Assembly: GCA_001662655.1 (NCBI GenBank)
Contig: KV460230.1
Reading direction: 5' to 3' (one strand)
Length of the DNA: 64,000 nucleotides
Source: Pseudogymnoascus verrucosus
Lineage: Eukaryota
Shown piece by piece: positions 8,484-38,302 of the stretch; position 1 is the first letter of the stretch, and the number at the start of each line of letters is the position of its first letter. A model generated the notes under the pieces. The model had not been told where the DNA came from and made no database searches. It saw nothing but the letters and a program-made list of their open reading frames with translations. A program made the position numbers and the translations under genes.

Positions 8484-8705
8484 ATCGACGATGTGGGCTG
8501 AAATGAGGGAGGCAGCGCGCCTTGATGAGCTTAGATCTTGAGGATCTATCAACCTCGATGAACGTGGATCTTATGAGGGCTCCAGCCTTTTTAGCACAGA
8601 ACTATCAAGAGGTTTACAAATGTCCAGGAAAGGCTCTGGGTCTTAAACTCACAACACCCGTTTGCACCGCGGCACGACGCAGATGATTCTGTGGGTAACG
8701 AAGTT

Positions 8706-13748: not shown

Positions 13749-14134
13749 GCTTGGTGGGGTAAAATAGGGTTTGAGTTTCTAATCTTCCAATTTCACAATC
13801 AAAGAAGCGGCACAATGGTGGTAGGAAGAGTGTCTCAGAGTCGACCAATTTCCAACCTCGGCTAGTGTGGTGTGGAAACGGCAAGGCTAATGGCGAAATA
13901 TGCCATTCTCCAACCTACTTACAAATATCATATGAAGTGCTTTTCTTACAAATATCAATCCCCTTTATGAATTGGCTCTCAGGATAATTTCTATATAACA
14001 TTGGAATTCTCCCAGTTGTCTCTCTATTTCACTCTACCCTCATCAAGAGATTCTCACAGGCCAATCATCACCCACTCCAATATCATCCATCCATCAATCT
14101 TGCATATTCGCCACCCTCCATCCTAACATCCACG

Positions 14135-19102: not shown

Positions 19103-22100
19103 GAGATGATCGTATGCCAGTGCAGCCGGTTGAAGTGCTATATCAAGAGGTCAGCGGGGTTGCGACCGTGGCTTATAAAAATGCAAGGCGAGATGGTCGC
19201 GTTGAGCTGGAGCAAAACTCCGGATCTTCAGCAGCCACGTGGAATATCACACCAATAGACCCAGCGACATGAGTTCTACTCCTCACGGAGCTTAAAAGCA
19301 GACTCCGAGCCCTATTGGCAACACCCGAATGGCTATGAAGCATGAAAATACCGCTGCTAAAAAAACTGATGATGGAGAGTAGAAAACAACCAGGGACGGG
19401 TTACCCAAATCGGCAGGATGCGAGGTTAAATCTGAGGATGCCTAGAGACCCATGCGAACGAAAGCAAGAGGGCTCGAGAGAAAGTACATTGAGTGCGCAT
19501 GGGCTGGGGGGTTCGTTCATAGGAAAATAGATCGTTAACTACTCACTTTCGGTCATTTGAAGCCCTGCTAACCAACGTGACCTAATTCCTGCTCGTTCCT
19601 TGTAGAAACCCAGGCGCGCCAATTTCAACAGATATTGTTTGGCTTCGAGTCAAGGCGTACCGGGCCGTAATGAATAAACGGCGGCGGTATGGGTGGTGTT
19701 TGAGAAGTGATGGTTGTCACCGGTAGGCCGCCAACCCGTAAGCCAGCCGCCTTGAGTGGCTGGAGCCCGGTCCTCTATGGACGGAGGGAAGAAATGTGTT
19801 GTATTGTTGTGGTTTGCGGGTTGCTTATGGACGGCGGATGAGAAGAAAACAAAACAAGTGAGACGATTGGCGGGCCGCGAGGGAGTGATATGAAGGTGGT
19901 GTGGCTTCGAGTTTGACTTGATATTCGCCCAAGGAAACCCTGAAGAGGTTGTATCGGGGCGTCACTCGCGTATTTTGAGGTTGGTCGACGACCTCGACGA
20001 AAAGGTGACGGCGACGAGCCCAGAGGGAGGGGGGCAGCCAGGTCACTTTTTAAGAGTACCGGTACCAGTACACACACACAGTTATGGCAGCTAACCGTCT
20101 AATAGACTTGACAGCCCTGGGTATCAGCAATGTCCCTTATTGTCGCAATGTCACGACGTGTTTGGGTGTTTGGGTGTTTTTGGGCGGCTAATTGGCTGAA
20201 CGAAGACTGGTCGGAAAGTATGGGATCTGGGCCTTCGCCTGTAGCTGCACAGCCCTTCAGCCCAGGTTATCTTGTTGTGTGAACCGGGTTGCCAGAAAGG
20301 GGATCAATCCCAGCAACTCAAAGGCCCCCAAGTACCTTTTGTTTCCCCGCCCCGTCGAGTATAGGGCCTCGAGAAGGGAACGGAGCTCTCAAGAGCTAGA
20401 GAAGCAAGCAAACTTGACGCCAGCTTTCGTTGCCGTACCTTTGGCGAGAAGATGATCGTAGTCGATGGGTTTTAAAGCCAACCCGGCAGAGTATGTGGCG
20501 TGTATGTTAATCGCCCCTTCGCATGTAGTGTTATCCGCCGTGGGAATCTGACCTGTAACTTAATCCTATGACCCTGGCTTCTGTGCCTTTTATGGCTTCT
20601 CTGGCGAGAATGAACAGCCCCTCAATAATAAGGAATGGACAACGATGACGACTATAACTCTTCCTCTCAAAGGTGAGAAGAGAGATGGAAGATGCGACAG
20701 TGGGTCCTCTTTCTTCTTCCCCCTCCACACTGGTGGCGAGATTTCCCCAGCGTAGTAGGTTGGCGATCGACTCGATCGAGAGATTTGAGTGTGTCCGATG
20801 CAGTCCGTCGCACAAAAAAGCCCTCCCTGGGTTTATACCGGGTTTATACCGGGTTTGTTCAATTTTGGGGTTGGGTATTGGCCCCGGGCGAGGTCTAAGG
20901 CTGGCGAATCTAATGGCAGCGAGCGAGTGTGGCTGCAAGGGTTGGAGACCCAATCGTACGTGCTGCAATGTGCGGTACTGTATGCACGTATGCAAAATAC
21001 CAACAGCGGTGTAGAGGTTTTGCTTGCTTTGCTTCTTAAGTCCAAGGCGTAGGCGTCAATACGTTGTTGTTGTTTGTTGGTTTTGAACAGGGTCGAATGA
21101 GTTGAACTGGGTTGGACGGGTTGGGTGGGTTGGTTGAATCCAAATGAAGCCAATACCACCCTTGAGCGATTCGACGAACAGAGGCTATGGTATAGAGAGT
21201 ATATAGACAGAGTATGGATAGTATGGAGAGGGCAAAACTCTTTCCACCAAAACCCGGTCTGAAGGCTTCCGAATAGTCCTCAGATCATATGTTGTTGCTG
21301 TAAGGCTGCGAGTGTGTAATGTGCAATGTGCAATATGCAATATATGCGCCAGCAACACAAGCCTGATACAACAGTGCGTTGGTGAGAAAATAGATATTCT
21401 CAGCCACAAAAGACAAGCGATGGCAGAGATCTGTTGCAACAAAAAAGCAATTGATCAATATCAAGGCGAATCTTTTGTGCAGAATGGAGGATGGCCGTTG
21501 ACTTTATGTTATCCTGGTGCACATCATAAACATCCCCCCCATCCACTAGCCACCCTCTCTCTCAAAAGGCTGCAAATCATAATAGAGGCTAAGCACGTGG
21601 AGCACCGTTCCGTAAATAAATCTTATGCAGGCGTGCGCTTATCTAACTAGCCCCCTTTCTCCAGTCTGAGGGGATTTTATCCATCCCTCGCTCACCGACT
21701 GCCTCAGTTGCGGTGAATCTTCTCGCAATTGGGAAGTCCGACGACAGAAGGGCACAAGAGCGGCAGATGAGACAACCTGAAAACAGAAAACAGCACTAGA
21801 CCGTAACTACGATCTAGAAAGCTTCGTTGCGCAAGATTCAATACTGACACCCACAAATACTGACTGAGACACCGTTTTGAGAATGAGAGTGGATGGGAGG
21901 GGAGGGAAGGGGTTGGATGGATGTGAGCTGAGGCTGAGGGCTGGGGGTGGGGGGGGAGGAGTAGGAGGAATCTGACTGAGATGTCCGTTGACGTTGAGGG
22001 TGATTGAGACCGAGGGGGCAAGGTCGTCTCTTTGCACCCATACCCATGCCATCCATCTCCGATCCACATCCACAGCCTCACCAACGATGAAGCAGTAGTG

Positions 22101-25100
22101 GTACTGCAGCGCAGAGGTATCTGATCTACAAAGCGTAAGATCGTCTTTTGACTGATGCAGGACGAAAAGGCGCGCATGGGGGAAGCATGGGGGGGAGGGT
22201 GGATTTCAGGGTAGCGGGTGCCATCATCCTTGCATTTCGAGTGGATTCGTGATGCCTCCTCATACACACACACCTATGGGGCTAAAAGATCCAAACGCCT
22301 GGTGTCGCTGGCCACTAAGAAAGCATGCACTGTGCTGTGCATAACAGGGCAATGACTCCCTGTACGTGCTGGTTCTGGGAAAACGGAAGGTGAAAGGGGG
22401 GGTGGGGGAGGAGTGCTAGGGCCAACCTAACAGCGGCAACAACAGGTGCTGCTGTATGAACCTTATTCTGGGACTGTATTTGAAAATTTCCATGGGTTCA
22501 TTGTTACCTCACAGCAGTTGGGTCAAATACCAACATTGCTGAGACCGTTAGTGAGCAGTTCAGTGGAAGTTCAGTGAGAGAGAGGCCCTTTCTCCAATTT
22601 GTGCCCTCGAGCACTGGCCAGCTCAACCCTCAGTATTCAGCCCTAACTTTTGATCCAGGTCCACAAAATCTATAGATTCTAGTGTCATTGATCTATGATC
22701 TACGCCTTGCCGTCGCCCACATCATTATTTCCATTTAAATTGCTACCTGGACGTGGGAGTAAAATGGTGGCGCCACTGCCCACGACATTCCATCCTGGGA
22801 GGAAAACTAGGCTATTACTTACCCGTTTTTCAACCAAGCAAATGCCGTGTGTGCATCAAGTGTGCGTCAAATATCCACGTATGCCTAACAACCCGGCAAG
22901 CCCCAACGTGTTCTTTCTCTCTCTTTTCTTACTCCTTACGTGAAAGAATTGGTCGGATCCCGGTTGATAGGCGCCCTGTGAAGTGGGATTTGCCGAGCAG
23001 AGAAACGTTTCCAGGTAGGATCAGACAGGGCCGATTGCTACGAGCCATATAATCCATACGCATATGTCTCTCCCGCTCCAAACTATCTGTTCATTGGCTA
23101 ACTCTGACGGCTCCTGCCAAACTTGCAGGGAGTGGAAAGCATCAAAATCATATCCTACCTGACATGCCTTGACAGATCCGGCGTCATCTTCCAACCTAGG
23201 CCCATTCCAGTCTCTTCTTACCACACATCTGGTACTGATATCTGTGGAGACAGCCCGTATTAATCACTACCCCATTTTTTAGCAGGTATGGCTGCATCTT
23301 AGCCACCCTGATAGATTGCTTACGTCCTCCACTATCATTTCTACTATTGCAACTGGTTTTCCCGGCTACTGGATTGCACCCACATACTACTGAACCTGCA
23401 AGAAGTGGCATTGCGCCTACTATACTTCACAGGGTTTGATTACCGGGAATAGCTGTCGGGTGAGCCTGATTGCCCGGTTATGTCTGAGACTGAGGGAGAG
23501 CTACCCGCACGCCACACTCGTTCTCGTAGTCTCCAGATAGCAAGCTAGCGATTCCAGCAAGCTCAGCAGTTGCCAGAAAGGACATACCGTCCCCTACACC
23601 GCCCTGGTTTGAAACCTCTCCCACAATAGGCGCGGCAGGGTCCCGTCAATGTCTGCATAGTAGCCACGCCAAGATTACAACTCTCAACGATGACTTGGTG
23701 CTGTGTTCTGCATCTCCAGCACCTGCTCTTCGCTGTTTATGCACTGGGGTGGAAATGCACTGCATGGTGTATTTGTTCGGGTCTTGCTACCATCTATCAT
23801 TGTGCCTGTCTGTCTCCATGAGGCCCAGAGCAATTTCCTACACATCGCTCACCTGCTTGCATGATGTTTCTCAGAAGCTTGCCATCCACTGAATGGCAAG
23901 ACATAGCCACCGCACAATGAAACTACCACATCGGTACTATACTATACACTCGGAATGTATTTGTGGTGTTCGGGTATGCGCTGTACCTCAACTCGTCCTC
24001 CACGTGAGCGATAGAGCTGTGACTTTCCTCTCCGCATTCCTACATTGGGAAACGCCCAGCTGCAAACACAAGCACACCAACACATTCTTGACCGGTCGCT
24101 TATAATGATTTGTATACGTTGATAGACAAACAACGGGCCATCTAATCAAAACAATGTAATTCATCAGGCAGAAAAGCGTGGATTTGCAGCCAGCCTTCCG
24201 TCCGACTCCTGTACTCGGTAAACACCCTTGCCTCCTTGCTTACAGGCATACTTACAAAGTACATTTGGCCTCGAGTATGCAGAGAGAAAGTAAGCAGACG
24301 GGAAAGACATACAGACAAAGCCGTCTACAGACCGGACCCGTTGCCCCGATAAAGGCATCCCGACGGGACTACATAGTACTCCCGGCTTATCACACGGAAC
24401 GGACCGTGAGTCCTGCTCATAACGTGGATGTGGTGAGTGCCATGTTAAGAGACTTGGAGGGATTTCAAAGCATGAAGGGTTGACGTGCATGTTATACTGT
24501 CAGATCACGATATGTTCAAATCAGCCTTGGAACTTATTCTGGAATTCTGAACGTCGCACTGCGCCGGCACACTCTCCCCAGCCTCTCGTTGACTTCATTT
24601 AGACCTGTAACCTCAGATCTTGTATGATGCGATCCATCGGAAACTTGCCCCCAACAAGTCTGGTGGACCAGCTCATGGGCCATCCTCCCCCACAGCCATG
24701 CCAAATCACGACCCAGGGATGTTTCCAATACAACGGTGTTTTGGTACAGCTGGAATGCGACATACACACCTCTGCGCGGGCTTCATTGCCATCCAATCGC
24801 AATACATTAAACCAACTCAAGGTGAGGGGGTCTCAGTGCTAGGCTCGGGCGCACCCTTTCAAACAAAACGTCGGGGTTGGCTGCATATCAGCCTACGATA
24901 ACCCTGGCTGGTCCAACACTGTTGCGTGCCCCCGTCCTAAATAGGTAAATCCGTCACATATAGTGGACATTCCGGAGATATTATTATTGAATCACAGCGG
25001 AGCAAGCCTAGGGGATTATTTAGCCAACTGGAGCTTGTGATTGAGAAAAAAAAATGCGGCATGCTACAGGAGATGAGCTATGCAGTGAGCCGTTAGTTTG

Positions 25101-27599
25101 ATTGATTGTACCGATGTAAATTCCCACGGCTCTGGGACACCTGTCCATAATGCCTGCGTGGCTTCGGCAGGTGAGTTGCACAACATTTTCTAGCAGGATC
25201 AACCAGCCACTATGGTGGAGGTGATCTTCTGCTGTCAGCGTTGCTCTGGTACACGGCAAATCACTGCAGGTCTCCTGTGTGATGTGTGTTAACTCGGTCC
25301 TAACAGCTTCATACACAAAATTAGAAATGCAGAGGCATCCTATATTCTGCACGATGGTTGCCTGGATGGCCCGCTGTCAGTGATTTAAGGTAAATGCACA
25401 GTTCACTTCGTGCACCTCTCATTACTGTCTGTGTTTCTCATACCTGTCCGTGTCTCTCATACCCGCCTGTGCATCGTCATACTGTCCTTATTCGGGGATT
25501 ATGGGCACAACATGCTGCTCCAGTATAGACCAAGGCATGACGCGTATCTTGATGCAATTTCCATCGCTCAAGACATCTTTCGGTATACCTGCTTTGGCAT
25601 ACGAATAGATGCATGTGTCTCTCAGTGGCGACGCCCCGCGCGTCGAAGGTTCAGTCCAGCCTGACGCGCGGCTGGACGTTGTTTCGAAATCTCGAACAAC
25701 TCTTGTTCCTTGCCTCTCAACAACAGGGTTTCTGACGGGATAGGAGGGATTGGGAGAATGGCTAAAATGATTGGTGGGAGATGAATATCGGAGCAGCTGT
25801 GTTTATTTGAGAGACGTTTGCAGACGTGTTTGTACGCCCCTATCTACTCCTTTTTCGTTTCTAGTTTTCGTCAGGGGCCCGAGCATGGACAAGTCACTGC
25901 CAAATGCATCAACCGTCCCACAGCAGGACTATATGTGACGGCACTTTCCTTGCTCCTCGAAAGGCAGGTGCAGCCGCCAGAGCCGTGGAAATCATCTTAC
26001 TCGCCCTGAAGCTCCATCTAAGGACACTCCTATGGTCTTCTACAAATCGCCAGCCAGGATGATGGCGAAATCTTCCAACCCTAGCATGAGCGCACAAGAT
26101 AGCGTTTATGGAATCGAGATTATGGCGAACCCTCGGCGAGAAACCAAGCTCAGTTATCGCCCCCGTGTATCCTACAGCCACGAGCAATGGGGGTGACGGA
26201 CAGATGAAGGTTTACTAGACAGAGTACAACGATATAGTTGCATTGTTAGATACGCCGTGTCCAACGGGCGCACTGGCCTCCAGTTCGCAGTTGAACGAGA
26301 CCTGGGCCTCAGTCATCGTTGCTTGTGTCCCCTGGGTGATGATCAAATCCCGAAATGGTTCACGTCAGCTCCACCTTAGGATGCCTTTCCAACCGCTCAT
26401 GATAACCTGCCTTCTTTGGATGCCAGTGGCGCTAGTAATCCAACAATTACCAAAGCACGCTCTATAAGCAGAAAGTTGATTCTAGGCTGCGACCGAAATG
26501 GCTCGCATGACACCCTACCCATCCTTCTACCCGCCACCCTTCCACTCCGAAACAGCATCAAATTGCATCCACTCAGGGTAGTCCCTCAGCCCTCCTTGGT
26601 TGTGGACATCGGGTATGTTCTTGGACAAGGCTCCCACTCAGCGCGTAAGGGTGAGCCCCTCCAATGCGTCTCGAACACATCACAGGTCGATTCTCGTCTC
26701 GGCATCATTTTACACACGTCATGATTCTCTTTCCTATTTGATGAGGTCTCGATCACCAATCCAACATGATGCCCGGCATTGCGAACCAGCTAGTCATGCA
26801 CTCCCTGTCTCAACTGCCGGATCTGACACCTACCCGCGGTTGTGTTACTCTCGCTCTTTCCCTGCCTTGCGTGAGTGATTTGTCAATCTTCGAGTGCTCC
26901 TTCCCGTCCTATTTGTCAACGCTCGAAACCCCGTGTGCTGCTGCTGCAAACGGATGTTGTCATGTGAGGCTAAGGATTGAAAATCAAGAGGACCCATGGA
27001 ACCCAAAGATCTGGTAAGCCCGGGTCAGTCCGAGTATTGACCGTTGCGCTGACGACGGAAACTCCCTCTGTGTTATTCGGGGAAGCTCCAGCTTAGGGCG
27101 CTTCTTCGGGCAAATTGGGCTACTGATGGGGATTTTTGGTTACGGATCCATCACTGTAAGGGAGTTCTGGACTCGATCGATGGGCGTTGCGTCGCGGATG
27201 TGTTGTTGGGGCGACCCAGGCTTCGAAGATTCGTCGGGGATCAGTTGTCGCCGAGATTTAGTTTTTGAAATAGAAGCTTCGTTTTTTCAGGTCGGTCTGA
27301 CTCATTCATCTGCTCGAGAAATATGTTTCTTTATGTATATCCAAGTTGCTGTACCTTTGTGGCTTCTTCCGTTACGATTCCCGGATGATTATCACTCGGC
27401 GTAATATTCGGGCACAATCAACGACGCTCTGCTGGGAATATTTGCTACCCCTTTTATGTTCCTGGCTTACTTGAACCTCGCTGCCAAATAGTTAGGAACC
27501 ATGAGCATGACCTGGTCTTTGCTTTACTCCTGGTATTGTGCCTTTCGTGGCGATAATTGGTGCTGTGTGATAATTCATGGGCAAAAGATCTATATACCC

Positions 27600-27950
27600 G
27601 GCACGACCCTAGACAGATTCGTTTGTCCTGCAAAAATATATATATACACCTTATTACCATGATACCCGTAGTCCTTAAAACCTCAGAAATAGTCTTTCTA
27701 CCTTCACTGTCGCTATTCCCATCGCTATCAGTCCCCCCAAACCTCATTACCATCGTCCTCGCCCTCGCCCTTACCATCATCCTTACTATCACGTATGTAG
27801 TTATGTAGACCATTTAGATAGTTAAGTAGTCTAATTTACTCGTGTATTCTATATTACCTTACAAGGCCTTAATACACGAAAGGGCTCGTTATTACCTTAT
27901 ATTATATATCTAAAAGTCGTCGTGAGCGAGTATTCTAAGGCCTCATAAAC
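27600..27950 (-). pseudogene. Degenerate TpA-rich relic of an acidic low-complexity coding sequence (probable RIP remnant)
   Basis: The minus strand reads DSKDDGKGEGEDDGNEV and then, after a frame change in a G6 run, GTDSDGNSDSEG. Most deviations from a D/E/G repeat are TpG->TpA changes. Flanks are AT- and TpA-rich. Confidence 0.4.
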
Positions 27951-28470
27951 ACGTCAATGGGGAGGTACGTACCTACTTACCGACCAAGCCCGGAGAAGCG
28001 CATTGTTTCCAATAATAATCTTCCATTTCTCGCACACATGCTTCGCTTCCGCCAACCTTAACCGAAGCGAAATGTTGGTCACGACGATTACTGGTTGGCA
28101 CTATCTCGTTGGTGTTGGAGTACTCATGGTGTTGGGGACGAATGGAGAATACGGCCGCGTTTCACAACCAAAAACGTGGTGATAATGCTCGGTATCCCGA
28201 AGAATCCCACAGTGCGAACGGTGCCGACGAATATCACAAGTAAAAACAGTATACAGAATATATAAAACCGATTGAATTATCTACCTATCTTGATGGGCTA
28301 CATGGCTATACACTGGATTTCTAGGGCCTGGCCAGAACCCTGAGTTTCCTGGTCGCTGCTGTTGGTTATCAAACCAGTGAGCCAATGGGATAGGCCTGAG
28401 CGCCCAAAACAGACTTATTAGTTGGTAAATCCCGCATCATCCCCGGAATCTCCAACAATATTGACTAGAT

Positions 28471-28519
28471 GTAAGATTAGAATGCACTCGAAAATGCCCG
28501 GTAAGATTAAAATGCACTC
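28471..28519 (+). repeat. 19-bp direct repeat (1 mismatch, 30-bp period) upstream of the halogenase
   Basis: gtaagattagaatgcactc (28471-28489) and gtaagattaaaatgcactc (28501-28519). Confidence 0.85.
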
Positions 28520-28675
28520 CAACTTATCCCCTTGACCCTCCTACAAATAGATGTCTTTGCCACTGCATAGCCGTTCACCTCATTACACCCGAACAAAGGT
28601 GCACGCTGAGCCTCAATTGCACTTAATTGACTTCACCCTATTTATACGGAATTATTCCATAAAACACGGCTCAAT

Positions 28676-30577
28676 ATGGTGTACGCTCCGATTCGTCGTT
28701 TCGCTAATCTCCGTCATGACTGTCCTGATATTTCTGATTCTATGCTACTGAACTCCAATAATCAAACCGAATTTACAGGAGTTGCTGATGTTGTTGTTGC
28801 TGGTGCTGGGATCATTGGGCTCTGCTACGCAATTCACCTTAAAAACATTTCCCCCCACTTGGAGATAAATGTTTTTGAAAAGAGCTCCTCACCTACGCAG
28901 AAGATCGGAGAGTCGACACTCTCTTCTTTCTCGAGATTTGTCAGTGGAGATATTATTCCTCATGACTACTTTCTTCGTCTGTTTGGCTTGAAAGATGGAT
29001 TGCAGTTTTATTGTGTCGATGAACGTGGTTTATCGGTTACATCAGAGGATATTGGAGGACTTGACCTGTCGTTTCAGCTTGATCGACGAATGTCTGAGTT
29101 GTTTTTGACCATGTGGGCTCAGAAGATAGGAATCAACGTATATCATGGTGTTGGTACTGATTTCAAAGTAATGCCTGAGGATGCATTTGCCATATCTGCC
29201 AATGGTGATAAAGACGGCGTTGCTGCCCCCAACCAAGAGATTGGAACAGCAATGAATCATTTCACGGCCCCGCAGGTCTTGCTAGACGACGCTTCGCAAT
29301 CTCTTGCGACTTCTGTGAAAGCCAAATTAGTTTGCGATGCAACCGGATTTTCGAGGAGATTGACCTCCAAGTTTGGAAATCGAGAGACGTTTAAGGGGGG
29401 GTGGAACTGTGATGCATATTGGGCATATTTCCAAGAGACGGACGTTAAGACAGAGGATCGCCTTGACCATTGGAACTATCCAGCAACCAAGCATATTTGC
29501 TTTCCAGAGGGCTGGGGATGGTTCATCAAGCTCATCTCTTGGGAGAAATCGCCACTGAGTAATCTTATGGATCTGATTTCCTATGTGATCGACAACGCCA
29601 AGCGTAATGTTTCTGCGCGCGACATCCCTTCGACGACGGTTCTATCCGAAATGTTTGATTGTCCTTTCGAGTTTATAACTTCTATTGGGTGGGCGGTTAG
29701 GAACGATCACAAATTCCCCGATAATCTTGAAGAATATGGGGCTACTGAATCCGAGAGAAAATTCACCTACTTCAAGAGGAAATACCCAACGTTGGAGCGC
29801 CTTATGGATAACAGCTACGCTATTCTCCCTAATTACTACGGGAAGAAGACTTACTTTGTAAGAAAGTCCATGGCTTTCCAGAGCCCAGTAGTAGCCGGGG
29901 ACGGGTGGCTTGCTATTGGAAATTCTGCAGGTTTCACAAATCCCCTGATCTCACCTGGGATCAATGCTGGAATTGGTGGCGCATTCTATGCGGCTATGCT
30001 CACCCAAGAAATATTTGCTGCGCCAGAGGAGAGCTCGCGGGCGGTAATGAAGAAAAGTGCCAACGCATTCCAGGCTTATCATCACGATTTCATGATGCCT
30101 CGGCTCAATCAGATGAATAGGTTCTGGTACAGCATGTTTCGAGACCACAGACTATTTGAGGCCATGATTCCATCTTTCTGGGCGGTTGGAGTCCAAGAGA
30201 TTGACCACCTTTACGGAGCTAGTTTTGTAGCTGAGGACGTCAACTGGGTTGTTGGTGCTGGAACCGCCGACTTTCAAACATACTCCAAAGCGGTTTTAGA
30301 TGTCTTGGAGCCGACTTTTGATGGTGTTGCTCCAACTGAGGACGCTGTGGAAAAAGTTCAGGCTCTCAGTAAGCAATTGAGACGTCGTTTGCATGACAGG
30401 TATCCAGGGAATAAGTGGGGATGTTATCTTCGGAAATACGATGATAGTCTTCGTATCGTACCAGGAAAGCATGAGAGGGACATAGGCGGTAAGTACACAT
30501 GTATACAATGCGTTGGATGCAAATATTGGATGCATAATTTCAGCGATTTCTGCCTCATCTGTGGGACTCCCAAGTAG
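28676..30577 (+). CDS. Flavin-dependent halogenase, MalA-like, with C-terminal Cys-rich putative Zn site; intronless, 633 aa
   Basis: FAD motif DVVVAGAGIIG; KIGEST; LRLFGLKDGL (candidate catalytic Lys106); DATG; halogenase signature GWGWFIKL (WxWxI); GNSAGFTNPLISPG (FxxPxxSxG); C-terminal CIQCVGC-x10-CLIC. Confidence 0.9.
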   Translation: MVYAPIRRFANLRHDCPDISDSMLLNSNNQTEFTGVADVVVAGAGIIGLCYAIHLKNISPHLEINVFEKSSSPTQKIGESTLSSFSRFVSGDIIPHDYFLRLFGLKDGLQFYCVDERGLSVTSEDIGGLDLSFQLDRRMSELFLTMWAQKIGINVYHGVGTDFKVMPEDAFAISANGDKDGVAAPNQEIGTAMNHFTAPQVLLDDASQSLATSVKAKLVCDATGFSRRLTSKFGNRETFKGGWNCDAYWAYFQETDVKTEDRLDHWNYPATKHICFPEGWGWFIKLISWEKSPLSNLMDLISYVIDNAKRNVSARDIPSTTVLSEMFDCPFEFITSIGWAVRNDHKFPDNLEEYGATESERKFTYFKRKYPTLERLMDNSYAILPNYYGKKTYFVRKSMAFQSPVVAGDGWLAIGNSAGFTNPLISPGINAGIGGAFYAAMLTQEIFAAPEESSRAVMKKSANAFQAYHHDFMMPRLNQMNRFWYSMFRDHRLFEAMIPSFWAVGVQEIDHLYGASFVAEDVNWVVGAGTADFQTYSKAVLDVLEPTFDGVAPTEDAVEKVQALSKQLRRRLHDRYPGNKWGCYLRKYDDSLRIVPGKHERDIGGKYTCIQCVGCKYWMHNFSDFCLICGTPK

Positions 30578-30984
30578 AATTAAATAGACAGTATTGCTTG
30601 CCGGTAGATTAGTTGTGTTGTGTTTGCCTAAATAAATATTGGAAATAACCCAGAAAATATTAATTCCGTCCAGCCAACTTAACTGAAAATAGCAACTTAT
30701 GGTTGTCCTCTATAACGAATCTGTCGTAAATATATACTCATCAAAAGCCACTCCAAGACCATATGCACAGCATTAATGCTACCCCACTGCCGTGAAATGC
30801 CTTATAATCATCAAGCCCGCTTGTCTCCACAATTCGAGACTCTATCACGATATCATAGAACAGGCAAGGCTATGACGCAGCCTTGCTTACAACCCCCACC
30901 ATCCACCTCGAAGACTGAGTCACTGGCACCTCAATACTTATACTCGAGGATATAGAAACGGAGCATCCATTATCTTGACACCAA

Positions 30985-32406
30985 ATGACCAAAAAACGGC
31001 ACCAAAGCTTGTACTCGAAACCCGCCAGCACAGCTCCTCACTCCTTCTCAACATCCACTGGCGCAACTGGTATTACCCCCACAACCCTTCATGAACCCCC
31101 CATAGACCTCTCACAGCACAGCTTGACCTAACTGCCGATAGCAAGCGATGCACCATCATCTGTCAACGACCTCCTGAAGACGCTGCGGCGATCCTACATC
31201 TCCCCCGAAACCAGCCATGAAACAACCGTCCAAACACCCACACTGCCACCCTCCCTTCGAAACCTCCTCGACCTCCCCAACACCCCAACGCCGAGGCCTC
31301 GTCGGCCGCAGCGCCTAGATGCAAATGGTCGCAGACTACCTGCTGGTCCTGCAGCCCCGCAGAGCTGGCTCGATTCGTCACGACACGCCCCCGAACCCGA
31401 GACAGAGAGCCATGTCATCCAAAGCAGCTGCCGGCCGGCACTGCACCACCTCCCTGGCATAACACGAAAGCCGCGACCAGGGTCGTTGGTAGACTGCAGC
31501 TTGCGGCGCATGGCGGAAGACTGGGACTTCCAGAACGAGTACAACCAATACCATCTAGCGACCCTACCGACGCGACTGCGCACCTTGCTGCTCTCTTATA
31601 TCGCCCACTACGGACCCGTAGACGGGGTGGGATATCTTGGGCTGGAGCGGCTTTTGCAGCTCCCCGAAGACGACGATAGTGGGCAAGAGGTCAACAATGA
31701 GGACTTCACCAGGCTGGATCTGGCATCCGCCGTTGGAAGCTCTGTCAGCCTTAAACATGTTATGCGCCTCATACATCCACCGATCAACGACTCCACTTCT
31801 GCGGCAGTGAGCTGGGATGCTCCATCACTACCTCAAAGCATGCGCGCCTCGCCACTCATAGGACTCACGCACGTCTCACTCGCCAACCCCGGCCTCGCCG
31901 CGTCATGGGTTGCCCTACTGGCGTTTGCAGCCGCAACACCGACGCTCACACACGTATCCCTTGCGTCCTGGCCAGCGCCAAACCTGACTCCGAATGCAAC
32001 GGCGGTTAACGCGAAGATGACAGCGAGGGGCTCACCGGTGGTGAATCTCGCGGCCGAGGACAGGTATGCGCATTCTATCGACCTGGACTACTCAGCTGCT
32101 GCGGCGATATTGCGGAGGCTGGCGAGGAGGTGGTATAGCCTTGAGTATCTGGATGTGGATGGATGCGCGGAGTGGTGGAAGGCTTTGTATTGGGGCACGG
32201 AAGAGGAGGGTATTGACTGGGCTGGTGACTGGGTGAGAGTGAGGTGCATCAGTATGAGGAATGTGGAGGGGAGTCGGAGGGTTCGTACGAGTAGCCCGTT
32301 CGGCAAGTCAGCGGCGGCAAAGACGTTTGTTAGAGAGTTTGAAGCGTATGTGAGGAAGCATAGGGGCTGGATCGATATTATTAAAGATGAGGATAATGTG
32401 GTATGA
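30985..32406 (+). CDS. Conserved fungal hypothetical protein with LRR-like repeats
   Basis: Plausible start MTKKRHQSLYSKPASTAP at 30985, a probable intron, then a long frame with PRRPRRPQR...LPAGPAAPQSW, LTHVSLA (twice), LEYLDVDGCAEW and GIDWAGDW. Exon boundaries not resolved. Confidence 0.65.
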
Positions 32407-32740
32407 GGTTGTTAGTATGGGTATGGTTACAGCCGTAGGCTGTACCCGGAGTGTGGCATGGAACTCTACGTTCATTTTGTCGGAACAGTCGATAATAATA
32501 GCATCAGCGGGGTGTTTGGGATAAGGGGCGATGATAAAATAGGGCTTTGACTTGTGTAGAATATGCATATAGTATAGTTTGAGCGGCATCACTCATATTC
32601 TCCCAAAATAACTCCTGCTATCGATACACAAATATCCTCATTACTCGTTATAATATACCCCATCCCAAGCCTTCGAATGCACCTTCCCACCAATCCAACG
32701 CCCAAGAGCATGCCAACTTTCCAGGCTCTAGCCTTCACAC

Positions 32741-35700
32741 CTACTTGAAATCCGCCGCAGTCAATGCCTGCACCACACTCGTTCCCTCGCTGAAGCGCGT
32801 CCTGAAAATACGGTTCGCGTTTTGAAACATGCCGTCCTTGAGACTGACAACAATGAATTGCGAGCCCTTGAACCTAGTCTTAATCAGACGCCCGATGTTT
32901 TGCGTGTGCGACAGATCCAATGCGGCGTCAACCTCGTCCAGAATGTACATCGGCGCAGGTTTGAACTGAAGTAGAGCCATAATGAGTGAGAGTGCGATGA
33001 GAGACCTATTCTTGAATTAGTGACTGTGTGGCGGATAGAGTAGAACATGTGAGGGATAACATACCGCTGACCACCAGATAACTCTGTTAGGCTCTGCTTC
33101 CATACTTTCCCAAGGCTGACCTTCACCTCCAGCCCCTCGTTAATAGTCTTCCCCTCGGGCGGGTCCAGCTTCGCAAAACTACCAGGTAGTAACTCTGCAA
33201 AGATCGCACCGAAGTCTCCATTAACCTTCTCCCATGTCTCCTGTAGCGCCTTCTTCTTGTACTCATCCAGACTGATGATAGTCTCCTCAATCTTCTTCTT
33301 GTCTCGGATGACAGTCTTCATCATGTTCTTGAGGGCCACTTCTTTCTTCTCGACGGAATCAATCATATTCATCACCTTGGGGTTGATTTTCTTCTTCATT
33401 CCCTGGAAGCGCTCGGTCAGGTTCCGCAGACTGGCTTTACATTCGGCAATATTCTGCCCTTGGAAATCATACGGCGTGCCGCTGCGTCCGAAGTTTGTCT
33501 TTTCATCCGAGATCCAGTCATACTCCTTCTCCATGTTTGAGATAATTTGGACTGCTGCTTGCTGCTCCTTGTTGAATTTCTCAATTTGATGGCCGAGTTT
33601 CTGCATCTCGAGGCCCTCTTCGGTAATCCTTGACGCCTTGGACCGAGAAGCGTCTTCGAGAGAGCGCAGCTCATCATCGAAGCCGGACAATTTCGCTCGT
33701 TCATCATTAAGCTGAGCCTCCGCGGCATCGTGATCGCGTTGTGCTTGGCGGCCTTCCTTCATAAGTGCGTTGATTTCCTCGTCTTGGGTCTTCAATGCCA
33801 GCTCGGATTCTTGAAGTTGCTCCTGTGCGGCAGAGAGTTCTCCACCGATCTGCTCGGAGTCTAACCTCGCCCCCTGGAGTTCTTTCTGCAAAACCTTGAC
33901 TGCTGCCGAATCTTTAGTCAACGCTTTCCTTAACGAATCGAGGCTCTTCTGAAGTTCCACAAGCTTCCCATCCTTGTTATTGTCAAAATCCTTCATATCC
34001 TTTTCGATGCGCTTGACGTCCTTCGTAGCCGTTTCTTGGCGTGCCTTTGCTTCTGATAAGTCGGATTTGAGTTGGACAATAGTTTCCCTCATGTTCTGTA
34101 CTTCTTGAATAATGGAGGAGGAAGAATTGCCACCAATTTGTTCCTCGGTGAGCTTAATTTCGTGGCTCTTCAAATCTAGCTCTTGTCTGATCTTCTTCGC
34201 CTGGTCGAGCTTCTTCTGCTCGCGCGCCATTATAGATTGAAGCTCAGCAAGTCTTTGCTCTGCCATCTTCAGATCCCTGGTCAACTCATTGAGCCTCTGC
34301 AGGGTCAGAAGAACGCCACTGGAGTTCGGAGCGCTTCCACCGGATAGTGTTCCGGAGGGGTCGTAGGAATCTCCTTGGACAGTGATACTCCTCATTCGTA
34401 CAGATGGGTCGAAGGTAACACGCTTGGCTGTCTCGGCATCTGCACAGATCAAAGTATTTCCGAAGACATACTCCATTGCCGTTGACACCTCCTCATCATA
34501 TCCGACCAATGACAGAGCGAGGTGGACCTTCTCCGGCGCAAGTTTCTTTGCTGCGCCAATTTTCTCTGCTGAGGCTTTGAACGCCGCAATCTTATTGAGG
34601 GGAATGATCGTAACACGCTTCTTGAGCTTGCCCTTTTGTAATAACTGTGTGCCCGTAACTTCGGTGTCCACGACAACATTGTATAGGCGGCCACCAGCAC
34701 AAATTTCAAGCGCAGTTCCTGCTTCAGACTTGTCCTTATCCAGAGTAAACAGTTGAGCAACTAATCCCTTTACCTTGGAGCGGTCGAAGTTGGGCGCAGG
34801 GTCTGAATAGTTGAAGTCGATATTTGCTACCTTCCGCCTCACTGTATCCGACTGCTGACGAAGAGTGCGAATTGTTTGCTGAAGCGAGGATTCCTCCTTG
34901 TACATCTCGTCTTCCTTGCCAGCTTCGAACCCAAGTTTGTTCAGATTTGACTCTAACTTTTGGGCTTGGCTCTTCAGCCCCTCGAGATCGTTGAGCAGAC
35001 CTGCGTTCTGTTCCTTTGCCTTTTTCGCTCGCGGTTCTTCTTCCTTAATCCGTTTCTCCAGGTGGGTTATCTTGAGTTTTGCCTGTTCCTGTTCAGTCGA
35101 AGCAGCACTAGCTCTATTCCTGGCGTCTTGGATTTGGCCTTGGTATCCACTCTCCTGGCCTTCTTTCGAGGCAACACCAGTCTGCAAAGTCTGCAAGAGC
35201 TCCTCCTTCGTTTCTACTTCTGTAGACTGCTTCTCTAGTGCATCCTTCGCTTCCACGAATTGGAGTTGTAATTTGTCATAAATTTTCGTCTTCTCTTGCA
35301 GCTGTTTCTCCAACTCAGATACAGTCTTTTGCACTGACAATTTCCGTTCTTTCTCTTCTCCCATGCTCGTTCGCTTCAGCTCGATCACGGTTGACAGGCG
35401 CACAATTTCGTGAGTGTGATCTTTGACTTCTTTTTCGAGTGCTTGTGCCTTTCCACCTTTGCGCAGTTCCTTGTCGCGCTGGCCCTTTACTCTTTTGATG
35501 TCTTCCTCAAGATTTGTGATTTCGGTCTTCATCCTCTCTGCCCCCTTTTCCAGATCTGTCATACGTTGCTTCTTTGCTTCGAGGTCAGATGCGGATAGCT
35601 TCAGTTTCTCCTGGTTCTTGATGTAATCGTGGGCAACAACAACCCTGGTCAGCCTCTCCAAGTCGTTTTGAGTTTGCTGGAAGTCCAAGAATGCCCGCTT

Positions 35701-36505
35701 CTCTGTCCGAAGTTTCTCTAGCTTCGGTTCGATTTCATCCTTGAGCAATTCCGTAATTTCCTGGACTTTCATCTCCTTCTTCGCCATAGTTTTGAAGGCT
35801 TTGTCCCTCCTATCCTCAAACATTCTTGTCCCAGCCGCTTCCTCGATCATAGCTAGAATCTCCACTGCCTTCATGTTCAGGACCTTCGTGATTCGGCCTT
35901 GCATAATGAGGAAGTTGGGGTTATTGATGTTGAGCTGGACTGATTGGAAAAGGTTCTGCACCGTCTGCTGCTGCGCTCGATGGCCATTGATGAGGTATTT
36001 GCTGGTTCCTCCGAGGACAATCTGGCGGGTAACAGAGATCTGCGCATATTCTTCAAAGCCGATGGGCGACTTCTTTTTGTCCTTATTGTCAAATACTATC
36101 GTCACACTTGCCTTGGTGACACCTGCTTGTCCTCGCTTGTATATAAGATCCTACAGTTCGTAAGTTTCCAGTTCCGACTGCTATGCTGTGTCCCACTGGG
36201 TGCCTACCTGTAAATTTTGGGCTCGGACTGTTGTCATGTTGGTGATACCCAGGACAAAACATATTGAATCGAGGATATTCGACTTTCCACTTCCATTTAG
36301 ACCAGTGATGGAGTTGAAGCTCTCGTCCCTATAGGCTATCAGTATATTTGTTGAGGAAATAGTGTCGGTTGCCATTGTTTACCATCCCGAAATGACTGTG
36401 CGTACAGCGTACGACTTGAAGCCCTGTAATGAGGTGTAAGCATGCGCATTAAAAAATCAGCAACGCAAAATAACATACATCTATGATAACTTCTACGACC
36501 CTCAT
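32741..36505 (-). CDS. SMC2: Condensin SMC subunit SMC2 (Cut14)
   Basis: [14 protein letters not shown]; Walker [13 protein letters not shown]; coiled coils; hinge [18 protein letters not shown]; signature LSGGQR; Walker [22 protein letters not shown]. Four introns. Confidence 0.98.
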
Positions 36506-37090: not shown

Positions 37091-37798
37091 ATGGCTAAAT
37101 CCGATACCTCGCCTTTAGGCGCCAATGCTGCGGCTGATGAAGAGCACCGCCTCCTCGTGCAGGAATTCTTAAAGTCGGCTTCATCAACAGAGTTGGGGAA
37201 TGTAAGCCATTATTCTTAGTCTCCCAGCATCTCCCACCCCGCCGGGGGTCTTAGAGAGGTTCAAGAAATGCCCGGCTCCCAAGCTGTGCCTGAACCTCTA
37301 CCACGCATAGTATTCACATGACTGATTATCATCCAGGTCTGGGGAGAGTCAATCTGCACGACAGACTTGAAAGTCATCTCCGCCACAGCTAAGCCAAACG
37401 GAAGAGTGGTATTTGAATACACCTGCCAGGCCAGCCACGCCAACCGCCTAGGAAACCTGCACGGCGGATGCGCCGCCACCATCTTCGACATCGCCACCAC
37501 GGCAGCGCTGGTTCCCGTCTCGAAGCCGGACTTCTGGAAATTCGTCGGCGTGAGCAGGACGCTGAATGTAACCTACCTGAGGCCTGTCCCGGTGGGCGAG
37601 ACGGTCATTATTGAGTGCGATGTTATTGCCATTGGGAAACGATTGTGTAAGTGAACTCGCTGGCCTTGGATTATATGGCGGTATGAGAAGCTCACTGTGG
37701 TTGTAGCTACAATAACTGGTACTATGAAGCGCAAGTCTGACGGCGCTCTTACTTGCATATGTGAGCATGGAAAGGTCAACATTGACCCGAAGTTGTGA
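37091..37798 (+). CDS. PaaI/hotdog-fold thioesterase (ACOT13/Them2-like)
   Basis: [35 protein letters not shown] and C-terminal CEHGKVN; three exons joined via GT-AG introns. Confidence 0.92.
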
Positions 37799-38302
37799 TC
37801 TGCCTTATATGGTGTCAGAGGTATTATACGGAGTATATAGACGCGCCGCAATTCATAGAATTTAGCGATGATAAACGGGCTTTGTCTGGGTGTATTTAGA
37901 TATATATTAGAAATATATGAGTGTGACTGTTGTTACATATATTCTACAGTATCTCCTCGGGTTGCTTACATAGCGCCTTGGTTTTATAGGCTTAAAATAT
38001 TACAAATGCGGCAATTACGATTTCATAATTGCATGTCACGTGGTTGTGGTCCCGAAATTTGACTGTTCGCGGTCAATTTTTGTGTACGATCCAGATTACC
38101 TCCCGCGGATATCTCGGAGACTCAAAATTCTCTTCGTTCAATTCAATGTTTTTCTATCTATTTCGTGCGTTCCTGTAACCTCGTTCTGAACTGCTTGGGA
38201 ACTGTGGAAAACATACCACGCCAGGTCCGACAACGGCCAATCGATCCAGCAATACCCTGCCAGGTGCTTGTATAGCCCTAGGGGCTCTATTTCCGGTTGA
38301 AC

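What the first reader, a model, noticed from the sequence alone, without database searches (positions are those of the whole stretch)
28676..30577. Orphan MalA-class flavin-dependent halogenase with no biosynthetic cluster around it
Seen: an intact, intronless 633-aa ORF with GxGxxG, KIGES, LFGLKDGL, WGWFIKL and FTNPLISPG motifs. Established: WxWxI and FxxPxxSxG mark flavin-dependent halogenases. From memory, the N-terminal pattern (LNSNN...DVVVxGAGIxGLxYA, LRLFGLKDGL, MSEL...AQ..G.NVYHG) follows MalA, the late-stage indole-alkaloid halogenase of malbrancheamide biosynthesis, rather than the Rdc2/RadH phenolic halogenases. MalA lies in an NRPS/prenyltransferase cluster. Here there is no NRPS, PKS, DMATS, transporter or flavin reductase for about 28 kb upstream or 33 kb downstream. 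Inference: a free-standing halogenase acting on a substrate made elsewhere or taken from the environment, so possibly an undescribed halometabolite pathway or biocatalyst.
Basis: partly seen in the sequence, partly recalled or inferred. Interest (0 to 1): 0.85.

Follow-up and report, generated by a model that had tools for sequence, protein, structure and literature searches.

The report
Unclustered zinc-binding halogenase, MalA sister clade
This is an intact fungal gene for a flavin-dependent halogenase built like the known enzyme MalA but belonging to an unstudied sister branch; it sits among ordinary housekeeping genes rather than in a biosynthetic cluster, and what it halogenates is unknown.

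Summary
Window 28676-30577 (+) is an uninterrupted 633-aa ORF with all the motifs quoted.

It belongs to the zinc-binding flavin-dependent halogenase (FDH) class typified by MalA/MalA'. Sequence match to PDB 5WGR-5WGZ is E about 1e-120. A confident model (pLDDT 87) superposes on MalA' at TM 0.87, against 0.59 or less for other halogenases. The catalytic Lys (K106), WxWxI, FxxPxxSxG and four C-terminal Cys are kept.

It is not a MalA orthologue. It is about 37.6% identical to the MalA clade and falls in a separate, well-supported clade with Pseudogymnoascus, lichen fungi, Mycena and Lentinula; oomycete, chytrid and bacterial groups branch beside it. MalA's H253, C112, S129 and F489 are replaced.

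None of 257 of 261 reading frames of 80 aa or more in the 64 kb hits a PKS, NRPS, prenyltransferase, P450 or MFS/ABC family. The gene is conserved next to the same downstream gene in the genus. In a relative it is covered by unspliced transcript-like contigs.

Unclustered fungal FDHs and 277 uncharacterised MalA homologues are already in print, so this is a new member of a known kind. Interest is moderate.

The parts
28676..30577 (+). Halogenase coding sequence, 633 aa, single exon, stop included
   Evidence: full-length match to MalA' and to 635-aa Pseudogymnoascus homologue P0002; unspliced contigs of a relative cover it
28802..28819 (+). GAGIIG (residues 43-48), GxGxxG flavin-binding motif
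   Evidence: G43 and G45 invariant in alignment A1
28991..28993 (+). Codon of K106, equivalent of the catalytic Lys108 of MalA
   Evidence: aligned to K108 (K in 84 of 85 family rows); coordinates
29177..29254 (+). Variable surface loop, residues 168-193, absent from MalA'
   Evidence: pLDDT below 50; unaligned insertion against MalA'; a related strain carries a 30-nt in-frame deletion at 29204 (run X3)
29513..29527 (+). WGWFI (residues 280-284), WxWxI halogenase motif
   Evidence: W, W and I each in 84 of 85 rows
29933..29959 (+). FTNPLISPG (residues 420-428), FxxPxxSxG motif
   Evidence: F420, P423, S426 invariant in A1
30509..30562 (+). C612, C615, C626, C629: Cys4 cluster aligned to MalA' C597, C600, C613, C616 (the C-terminal cysteines of the zinc-binding class)
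   Evidence: 85, 85, 85 and 83 of 85 rows keep Cys; coordinates
30369..30370 (+). Cryptic GT (CA|GTAAGC) inside the ORF, used as splice donor by the 984-986-aa fused gene models of three other Pseudogymnoascus annotations
   Evidence: no contig of runs X17 or X20 shows this joint
30985..32406 (+). Separate downstream gene, 449 aa, no Pfam family. Exon 1 is 30985-31069, the intron 31070-31141 (GT..AG, 72 nt), exon 2 is 31142-32406
   Evidence: splice joint in contigs of X17 and X20; open spliced frame; 92.7% identical to the tail of P0004; no Pfam hit

Best explanation
The ORF encodes an active two-component flavin-dependent halogenase of the zinc-binding (MalA) structural class. It belongs to an uncharacterised sister clade of MalA.

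**Inferred mechanism**, by homology to MalA' and FDHs in general:
- FAD binds at GAGIIG 43-48.
- FADH2 comes from a non-dedicated cellular flavin reductase.
- FADH2, O2 and chloride or bromide give hypohalous acid at the flavin.
- The WGWFI wall keeps the substrate away from the flavin.
- K106 captures or positions the halogenating species for electrophilic substitution of an electron-rich aromatic substrate.
- That substrate is bound as a free molecule in the helical C-terminal half.
- C612/C615/C626/C629 hold a structural zinc.

**Role.** The gene lies among housekeeping genes, so the enzyme works in trans. Most likely it is a remotely encoded tailoring enzyme for a metabolite made elsewhere in the genome. 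The substrate is not expected to resemble premalbrancheamide, because the MalA residues at the pocket are replaced.

**Shown:** gene integrity, class membership, clade placement, lack of a cluster in 64 kb, conservation in the genus, and transcript-like contigs in a relative.

**Inferred:** catalysis, zinc binding, the halide used and the substrate.
For: **Family and fold.**
- Pfam Trp_halogenase is above cutoff.
- phmmer E = 4.5e-120 to MalA' chains over residues 13-630.
- The AlphaFold model has pLDDT 87.2 and pTM 0.90.
- It matches 5WGR at TM 0.87 and rmsd 2.8 A. The next best are PltM 0.59, CtcP 0.56 and RadH 0.50.

**Catalytic and structural residues** across 85 family members:
- K in 84 of 85 rows.
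- W, W and I of WxWxI each in 84 of 85.
- The four Cys in 85, 85, 85 and 83 of 85.
- The window protein has all of them.

**Constraint.**
- 88-91% identity to other Pseudogymnoascus proteins.
- In a related strain (run X3), the indels shown inside the ORF are 3, 30 and 3 nt, while the six shown just upstream of it are 1-2 nt (16 further indel rows were not displayed).

**Synteny.** The downstream gene is the same in the species of P0004.

**Transcription in a relative.** Runs X17 and X20 come from two studies.
- Each has one contig (2323 and 2137 nt, about 94% alike) covering 28512-30762 and 28512-30597 without a joint.
- Separate contigs of the same runs carry a GT..AG splice in the downstream gene. 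So the runs hold spliced RNA.

**No cluster.** 257 of 261 frames were scanned and none hit a core biosynthetic family.

**Precedent** for remote fungal FDHs: ArmH1-5 and PloN (PMC9144378, passages); A3428 (PMC10501868, abstract and passages).
Against: - No activity, halide or substrate was or could be tested.
- No member of the window's clade has a described function in the papers searched.
- MalA's Glu494, described as the active-site glutamate near the indole NH (PMC8407142), has no secure equivalent. HMMER and a 10-row MAFFT alignment put Q507 there with E508 beside it. The 85-row MAFFT alignment puts I509 there.
- The published remote fungal FDHs are RadH-type, not MalA-type.
- The rest of the genome is not held. 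A partner pathway is therefore assumed, not seen.
- Expression evidence comes from a relative about 6% different in DNA. It rests on assembled contigs of runs whose RNA status is a guess supported only by the splice joint.
- Two other members with usable flanks are also unclustered (L001, L005). That fits a stand-alone role as well as a remote-tailoring one.
Confidence: 0.6

Rival explanations
1. Stand-alone halogenase without a dedicated pathway. The clade is a cluster-independent lineage that halogenates a common or exogenous aromatic compound (chemical defence, detoxification or signalling). It has spread patchily, partly by horizontal transfer.
For: **Context.** All three members with usable flanks lack core biosynthetic neighbours:
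- the window, 64 kb;
- the fungal contig L001, 10 kb each side, 30 of 32 frames scanned;
- the bacterial contig L005, 41 of 64 frames scanned.

**Distribution.**
- Patchy: Leotiomycetes, lichen-forming fungi, Agaricales, oomycetes, chytrids and a 65%-GC bacterium at 42% identity.
- Several paralogues sit on single Mycena contigs.

**Composition.** Halogenase GC3 is 0.47, against 0.53-0.63 in four neighbouring genes.

**Distant bacterial relatives** sit in regulatory or stress-type settings:
- an OsmC-methyltransferase cassette behind an ECF sigma factor and a kinase;
- cNMP-binding fusions.
Against: - Only three contexts were examined, two of them with 6-10 kb flanks.
- Fungal tailoring genes are known to lie remote from their clusters.
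- The bacterial cassettes belong to relatives only 27-34% identical.
- The GC3 difference is modest and was not tested against genome-wide variation.
Confidence: 0.2
2. True MalA-like late-stage indole-alkaloid halogenase serving a mal-like NRPS/prenyltransferase cluster elsewhere in the genome.
For: - Same fold and zinc-site cysteines as MalA'.
- Conserved N-terminal LNSNN and LFGLKDGL segments.
Against: - 36.2-38.7% identity to all 23 MalA-clade rows. MalA is a median 64% identical to its own clade.
- Separate deep clade with starred support.
- Bogoriella has one gene of each clade, so the two are paralogous lineages.
- H253 becomes Ala, C112 becomes Gln, F489 becomes Val, and the S129 segment is deleted.
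- No NRPS or prenyltransferase in 64 kb.
Confidence: 0.05
3. Not a halogenase in vivo. It is a flavoenzyme of the same fold that has taken on another reaction, such as hydroxylation, or modification of a protein or peptide residue.
For: - No curated NCBIfam model reaches its cutoff. Weak sub-threshold similarities include the flavin-dependent maturases LodB, GoxB and QhpG.
- The position equivalent to MalA Glu494 is ambiguous.
Against: - The Lys and the WxWxI wall that distinguish halogenases from monooxygenases are kept in 84 of 85 family rows and in the window protein (role of WxWxIP from PMC8407142).
- The NCBIfam hits are far below cutoff (21-40 bits against cutoffs of 240-900).
- The best of them is itself a halogenase, CmlS.
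Confidence: 0.08
4. The real product is a roughly 985-aa fusion protein, as annotated in three other Pseudogymnoascus genomes. It would lack the zinc module and be joined by splicing to the downstream protein.
For: - Gene models P0004, P0005 and P0006 (984-986 aa) cover 90-91% of the query.
- A good donor-like site, CA|GTAAGC, lies at 30369. It joins in frame to the genuine acceptor at 31141.
Against: - In runs X17 and X20 the contigs run straight through 30369 to 30597 and 30762. No joint from 30369 is reported.
- The downstream gene has its own first exon, with ATG at 30985, and a 72-nt intron.
- Two other Pseudogymnoascus models (635 and 621 aa) and all other clades end with the Cys4 module, which is invariant.
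- Caveat: contigs drop rare isoforms.
Confidence: 0.04

Closest known systems
MalA / MalA' of Malbranchea aurantiaca (PDB 5WGR-5WGZ), the zinc-binding FDH that dichlorinates premalbrancheamide
   Same: - Full-length homology (E about 1e-120).
- Same fold (TM 0.87).
- Same GxGxxG, catalytic Lys in LFGLKDGL, WxWxI and FxxPxxSxG.
- Same four C-terminal Cys.
- Similar size, and no fused reductase.
   Different: - 36-39% identity.
- Different deep clade.
- H253 is Ala270, C112 is Gln110, F489 is Val504, and the C128/S129 segment is absent. The Glu494 equivalent is ambiguous, with Q507/E508 nearby.
- An extra disordered loop at 168-193.
- No NRPS/prenyltransferase cluster around it.
- MalA's 50-residue C-terminal tail after the Cys4 module is missing.
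Remotely encoded fungal FDHs: ArmH1-5 (Armillaria mellea), PloN, A3428 (nornidulin)
   Same: They are encoded outside the cluster whose product they halogenate, and they act on free substrates (PMC9144378; PMC10501868).
   Different: - A3428 is reported as 47% identical to RadH and 52% to AclH, i.e. the phenolic RadH type.
- RadH matches the window model only at TM 0.50 and 15% identity.
- It is absent from the sequence hits at E <= 1.
CHEESY1, an FDH mined by motifs and not embedded in a cluster
   Same: [quoted passage not shown]
   Different: The authors place it next to Rdc2 and Bmp2, with catalytic K79 and a shared flavin/substrate entrance. The paper does not mention zinc (0 occurrences).
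Uncharacterised fungal MalA homologues (277 MycoCosm hits, 38-77% identity to MalA)
   Same: The window protein, at about 38% identity to MalA, falls at the lower edge of the set reported in PMC9144378 (passage). All of them are uncharacterised.
   Different: In the passages read, that review gives a count only, with no clade structure, context or residue analysis.

Membership tests
Flavin-dependent halogenases (Pfam PF04820 and relatives) | Score above the Pfam gathering threshold | tested here: met
   43.3 bits against a cutoff of 21, E = 3e-11
Flavin-dependent halogenases (Pfam PF04820 and relatives) | GxGxxG flavin-binding motif | tested here: met
   GAGIIG 43-48
Flavin-dependent halogenases (Pfam PF04820 and relatives) | WxWxI(P) motif that separates halogenases from monooxygenases | tested here: met
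   WGWFI 280-284. The sixth residue is K, where MalA has R.
Flavin-dependent halogenases (Pfam PF04820 and relatives) | Fx.Px.SxG motif | tested here: met
   FTNPLISPG 420-428
Flavin-dependent halogenases (Pfam PF04820 and relatives) | Conserved catalytic lysine | tested here: met
   K106 aligns with MalA K108; K in 84 of 85 rows
Flavin-dependent halogenases (Pfam PF04820 and relatives) | FADH2-, O2- and halide-dependent halogenation of a substrate | not testable with these tools
   needs an enzyme assay
Zinc-binding FDH class (MalA type) | Full-length sequence and fold similarity to MalA', including the C-terminal domain | tested here: met
   Residues 13-630 aligned, E about 1e-120; TM 0.87
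Zinc-binding FDH class (MalA type) | Four C-terminal cysteines (MalA' C597, C600, C613, C616) | tested here: met
   C612, C615, C626, C629; 83-85 of 85 rows keep them. That these four are the zinc ligands of MalA' is recalled, because the primary paper was not held. Zinc binding of the class comes from PMC8407142.
Zinc-binding FDH class (MalA type) | Bound zinc ion | not testable with these tools
   needs metal analysis or a structure
MalA orthologues (premalbrancheamide-type indole halogenases) | Placement inside the MalA clade | tested here: not met
   Window side 60 rows, MalA side 25 rows, both starred. The MalA clade stem is 1.08 changes per column. Identity to the MalA clade is 36.2-38.7%.
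MalA orthologues (premalbrancheamide-type indole halogenases) | Active-site Glu494 near the indole NH | tested here: inconclusive
   Aligned to Q507 with E508 adjacent, or to I509. 43 of 48 core-clade rows have D/E at 507 or 508, against 0 of 23 MalA-clade rows.
MalA orthologues (premalbrancheamide-type indole halogenases) | His253, the residue mutated in 5WGS and 5WGT/5WGX | tested here: not met
   Ala270 here. Ala in 46 of 48 core-clade rows, His in 15 of 23 MalA-clade rows.
MalA orthologues (premalbrancheamide-type indole halogenases) | Location in an NRPS/prenyltransferase (mal-like) cluster | tested here: not met
   No such Pfam family in 257 of 261 frames of the 64-kb window. The rest of the genome is not held.
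Rdc2/RadH-type phenolic FDHs | Closest similarity to RadH/Rdc2 | tested here: not met
   RadH (8gu0) has TM 0.50 and 15% identity. It is not among the 19 PDB sequences at E <= 1.

The most novel reading that the evidence does not exclude
The window gene represents a cluster-independent lineage of zinc-binding halogenases shared by fungi, oomycetes, chytrids and bacteria. Its job would not be tailoring of a dedicated natural product. It would be regulated halogenation of a common or environmental aromatic compound.

The bacterial relatives point that way. Some sit in OsmC-methyltransferase cassettes behind an ECF sigma factor and a kinase. Others are fused to cyclic-nucleotide-binding domains, and one is also fused to its own reductase.
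Probability: 0.15. Interest if true: 0.65.

Novelty: new member of a known kind. Interest (0 to 1): 0.35.

Why it matters
MalA is the only characterised zinc-binding FDH, and it is valued for late-stage C-H halogenation of complex molecules.

The sister clade described here has its own pocket signature: Gln110, Ala270 and an acidic pair at 507/508. It should therefore have a different substrate scope, which would widen the biocatalyst palette.

Its consistent position outside clusters means cluster-based genome mining overlooks it. It could account for halogenated metabolites whose clusters lack a halogenase.

The practical gain is a defined candidate and controls (K106A, Cys4 mutants), not a new principle.

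Tried and rejected
**Resources not available**
- Whole-genome search for a partner cluster: no genome is held for this window.
- Primary MalA structure paper (PMC5595095): not held. Residue roles were taken from reviews and PDB titles.

**Sequencing runs**
- Runs for the exact sequence: no RNA holder listed.
- Parts without cover in the RNA-like contigs of X17 and X20 (about 28161-28482 and 30763-30950) look like transcript ends. They are not used as evidence.
- Run X12 gave only short pieces.

**Searches that gave nothing**
Frames of 80 aa or more were scanned instead and none hit Pfam.
- NCBIfam: nothing reaches a curated cutoff.
- Earlier notes of this scan, by place and by sequence: nothing.
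- Literature on Pseudogymnoascus halogenases or chlorinated metabolites: only cluster-borne phenolic-type FDHs of group V polyketide clusters, nothing on this gene.
- Search for 'cyclic nucleotide-binding' with 'flavin-dependent halogenase': 0 papers.

**Readings rejected**
- Pseudogene. The frame is intact, the residues are conserved, indels are in frame, and there are transcript-like contigs.
- The 984-aa fusion product (see rivals).
- A partner flavin reductase as a criterion, because the reductase is reported as non-specific.

**Not attempted**
- dN/dS, because no relative's DNA sequence was obtainable.
- Residue-level inspection of the model's pocket, because coordinates are not returned.
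Full report
**1. The observation.**
Window 28676-30577 (+) is a single open frame of 633 codons starting at ATG. An in-frame TGA lies 48 nt upstream.
- LNSNN at residue 25
- GAGIIG 43-48
- KIGES 76-80
- LFGLKDGL 102-109
- WGWFIKL 280-286
- FTNPLISPG 420-428

Pfam assigns it to Trp_halogenase (PF04820, 43.3 bits, cutoff 21).

**2. Which halogenase class.**
- A phmmer search of all PDB chains returned 19 distinct sequences at E <= 1. The five best are the MalA' entries 5WGT, 5WGV, 5WGR, 5WGS and 5WGU (E 4.5e-120 to 4.1e-119). They align over query residues 13-630.
- The next hit, CmlS, has E = 9e-4, and RadH is not listed.
- An AlphaFold2 model built on a 20-sequence alignment is confident (pLDDT 87.2, pTM 0.90). 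Only residues 1-3 and 168-193 fall below pLDDT 50.
- Foldseek against the PDB puts the MalA' structures first (TM 0.86-0.88, rmsd 2.7-3.6 A, 35-36% identity). PltM (0.59), CtcP (0.56) and RadH (0.50) follow at a distance.

**3. Catalytic and structural residues.**
I aligned the 85 of 121 retrieved proteins that are 590-780 aa long; 36 shorter or longer ones were left out.
- The Lys equivalent to MalA K108 is present in 84 of 85 rows.
- The two Trp and the Ile of WxWxI are each present in 84 of 85.
- The four cysteines aligned with MalA' C597, C600, C613 and C616 are present in 85, 85, 85 and 83 of 85. Here they are C612, C615, C626 and C629.
- That these four are the zinc ligands is my recollection of the primary paper, which was not held.

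**4. Not a MalA orthologue.**
- The closest proteins are from Pseudogymnoascus species (88-91% identity). The window therefore most likely comes from a member of that genus.
- Next come lichen-forming fungi, Mycena, Lentinula, Mucidula and Favolaschia (51-69%), oomycetes (43-46%) and chytrids (33-36%).
- MalA itself is 38% identical.
- A maximum-likelihood tree of the 85 rows (IQ-TREE quick search, LG+G4, SH-aLRT support) splits them into a MalA side of 25 rows and a window side of 60 rows. Both are starred.
- The 23-row MalA clade sits on a stem of 1.08 changes per column. The tool warns that some long branches meet, so the placement of the chytrid, oomycete and odd environmental rows is unsure.
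- The window protein has a median identity of 58.7% to the 47 other core-clade rows, 43.0% to 12 basal rows and 37.6% (36.2-38.7) to the MalA clade. MalA is a median 64% identical to its own clade.
- Bogoriella megaspora has one protein in each clade (P0042 and P0102), so the clades are paralogous lineages.

The clades also differ at the positions singled out in MalA:

| MalA residue | Window residue | Core clade (48 rows) | MalA clade (23 rows) |
|---|---|---|---|
| H253 | A270 | Ala in 46 | His in 15 |
| C112 | Q110 | Gln in 44 | Cys in 12 |
| F489 | V504 | Leu 28, Val 10 | Phe in 15 |

- The segment holding C128/S129 is absent in 60 of the 85 rows, including the window protein.
- Glu494, the glutamate near the indole NH, has no secure counterpart. 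Two alignments put Q507 there with E508 next to it. The 85-row alignment puts I509 there.
- The core clade has its own mark here: an acidic residue at 507 or 508 in 43 of 48 rows, against 0 of 23 in the MalA clade.

I conclude that the substrate is unlikely to resemble premalbrancheamide.

**5. Surroundings.**
Of 261 stop-to-stop frames of 80 aa or more, 257 were scanned against Pfam (60, 150, 47). The other 4 lie within the halogenase ORF region.

Identified genes:
- a fungal transcription factor fragment (90-905 -)
- an RNase H (7980-8570 -)
- an RTA1-like membrane protein (11679-12605 -)
- a Pyr_redox_2 oxidoreductase (13988-15316 +)
- an NDT80-type regulator (16708-18195 -)
- SMC (32744-36150 -)
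- a 4HBT thioesterase (37322-37651 +)
- a MOSC protein (38282-39764 +)
- a cytochrome-b5 fatty-acid desaturase (40779-41921 -)
- Lon protease (49442-52690 -)
- a Bro1/ALIX protein (53177-56353 -)
- a DnaJ chaperone (57898-59157 -)
- a SAP30-like protein (60113-60805 -)

No polyketide synthase, NRPS, aromatic prenyltransferase, terpene synthase, P450, MFS or ABC family was hit. No frame between 18.2 and 28.6 kb hit anything. The claim of no cluster in the window stands, within the limits of a Pfam scan of frames of 80 aa or more.

**6. Conservation, gene structure and expression.**
- *Fused models.* Three Pseudogymnoascus annotations give 984-986-aa proteins. tblastn shows that residues 1-573 of one of them (P0004) match 28676-30397. 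Residues 563-984 match 31138-32403 at 92.7%. The same downstream gene therefore follows the halogenase in that species.
- *Cryptic donor.* The fused model uses a donor-like CA|GTAAGC at 30369 inside the halogenase ORF and an acceptor at 31141.
- *Contigs of a relative.* Contigs of four public runs were laid on 28000-32800 at 80% likeness or more. Runs X17 and X20 are the same related organism from two studies, and their RNA status is a guess.
  - One contig in each (2323 and 2137 nt; 147 and 126 differences) covers 28512-30762 and 28512-30597 without any joint.
  - Separate contigs cover the downstream gene and skip 72 nt with GT..AG ends.
  - The DNA-like run X3 does not skip this stretch. 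X17 and X20 therefore contain spliced RNA.
- *Downstream gene.* With ATG at 30985, exon 1 to 31069, intron 31070-31141 and exon 2 to 32406, the gene reads open for 449 codons.
- *Conclusion.* The two genes are separate. The halogenase keeps its zinc module in the transcript-like contigs. The fused models are probably annotation artefacts, although contigs can miss rare isoforms.
- *In-frame indels.* In run X3, a variant contig differs inside the ORF by indels of 3, 30 and 3 nt. The six indels shown just upstream of the ORF are 1-2 nt (16 further indel rows were not displayed). This fits a constrained coding frame.
- *Variable loop.* The 30-nt deletion falls in the loop 168-193, which the model predicts poorly and which MalA' lacks.

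**7. Relatives elsewhere.**
- *Family size.* An exhaustive phmmer search of 1.84 billion cluster representatives found only 262 at E <= 0.001 and 91 at E <= 1e-30. The family is compact.
- *Metagenome contigs.* The scan gave 9 loci from 181 pattern matches. Two have useful flanks.
  - L001 is fungal and 58% identical. I scanned 30 of its 32 frames of 110 aa or more; the two antisense frames inside its halogenase ORF were dropped. It has a thiamin pyrophosphokinase, a sulfotransferase, a Zn2Cys6 regulator and an NB-ARC/TPR protein within 10 kb. It has no core biosynthetic enzyme.
  - L005 has 65% GC, and I scanned 41 of its 64 frames. Its neighbours are TetR, AraC, a Na+/H+ exchanger and a glyoxalase, so it is bacterial. 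It encodes a full-length homologue 42% identical to the window protein.
- *Bacterial and archaeal genomes.* The scan gave 4 loci from 20 matches, at 27-30% identity. All four keep the Lys, WxWxI, FxxPxxSxG and the C-terminal cysteine pairs. The zinc-binding class is therefore not confined to fungi.

**8. What is already known.**
- A 2022 review reports that BLASTP of MalA on MycoCosm found 277 fungal homologues of 38-77% identity, none characterised. It also describes fungal FDHs encoded outside their clusters, ArmH1-5 and PloN (PMC9144378, passages).
- A3428, the nornidulin halogenase, is remotely encoded and RadH-like (PMC10501868, abstract and passages).
- CHEESY1 was chosen by motifs and lies in no cluster (PMC12645471, passages).
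- The review also says that the flavin reductase partner does not seem specific to FDHs. Its absence here carries no weight.
- No paper characterising a member of the window's clade appeared in the listings of seven searches. I opened only some of the listed papers, and these searches cover only open-licence PMC papers and bioRxiv.
It is not independent evidence.

**9. Verdict.**
- The gene is real, intact and conserved, and very probably encodes an active zinc-binding FDH.
- It is a member of the MalA structural class but not of the MalA orthologue group. Nothing links it to indole alkaloids.
- Its unclustered position is real but has precedents.
- The most likely role is halogenation in trans of a free aromatic metabolite made elsewhere (confidence 0.6).
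- A stand-alone, pathway-independent role is the main rival (0.2). It is also the more novel reading.
- Novelty: new member of a known kind. Interest 0.35.

Noticed in passing
window 30369-31142; proteins P0004, P0005, P0006: Three public Pseudogymnoascus gene models of 984-986 aa fuse the halogenase, minus its zinc module, to the downstream gene. They use a cryptic donor inside the ORF. RNA-like contigs of a relative show two separate genes, so these models look like annotation errors.
   Followed up: yes
window 30985-32406 (+): The downstream gene has a 72-nt GT..AG intron (31070-31141) and encodes 449 aa with no Pfam family. It is conserved at 92.7% in another Pseudogymnoascus species. Its function is unknown.
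   Followed up: partly
L010:146-4855, L011:4403-8541, L013:4322-7728: Three of the four distant bacterial homologues share a cassette of OsmC-like protein, SAM methyltransferase, then the Cys4 halogenase homologue. They come from two Ignavibacteria-type MAGs and one alphaproteobacterial MAG. DUF4395 follows in L010 and L011. An ECF sigma factor plus a Ser/Thr kinase-TPR protein lies upstream in L011 and L013.
   Followed up: partly
proteins P0143, P0151, P0152, P0154, P0158, P0160, P0161, P0165, P0166, P0193: - 10 of 18 long family members (690-1196 aa) carry an N-terminal cyclic-nucleotide-binding domain fused to the halogenase.
- P0165 adds a C-terminal FNR-like reductase and a 2Fe-2S ferredoxin, which could make it a self-sufficient halogenase.
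- 9 of the 10 keep the catalytic Lys. All 10 keep WxWxI or a close variant (WxWxV in P0193). Eight keep CxxC...CxxC; P0160 and P0193 have C-x-C for the first pair.
- No paper pairs 'cyclic nucleotide-binding' with 'flavin-dependent halogenase'.
   Followed up: partly
L005:6223-8181 (+): A bacterial contig (65% GC, with TetR, AraC and Na+/H+ exchanger neighbours) encodes a full-length homologue 42% identical to the window protein. That is closer than MalA. Its first cysteine pair is C-x-C and not C-x-x-C. This hints at transfer between bacteria and eukaryotes.
   Followed up: partly
window 28676-30577 compared with 31144-32406, 32887-36150, 49442-52690 and 57898-59157: The halogenase has lower third-position GC (0.47) than four neighbouring genes (0.53-0.63). 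Its overall GC is 0.461, against 0.50 for the window. This was not tested against genome-wide variation.
   Followed up: no
window 18200-28600: About 10 kb upstream of the halogenase, no frame of 80 aa or more hits any Pfam family. GC content is ordinary (0.49-0.50). This could be genes without known domains, or non-coding DNA.
   Followed up: no
window 29177-29254 (residues 168-193): This is a disordered, clade-specific loop. A related strain (run X3) carries a 30-nt in-frame deletion at 29204 inside it.
   Followed up: partly
window 7980-8570 (-): An isolated frame has RNase H (E = 1.8e-21) and RVT_3 similarity. It could be a cellular RNase H gene or a retroelement remnant.
   Followed up: no
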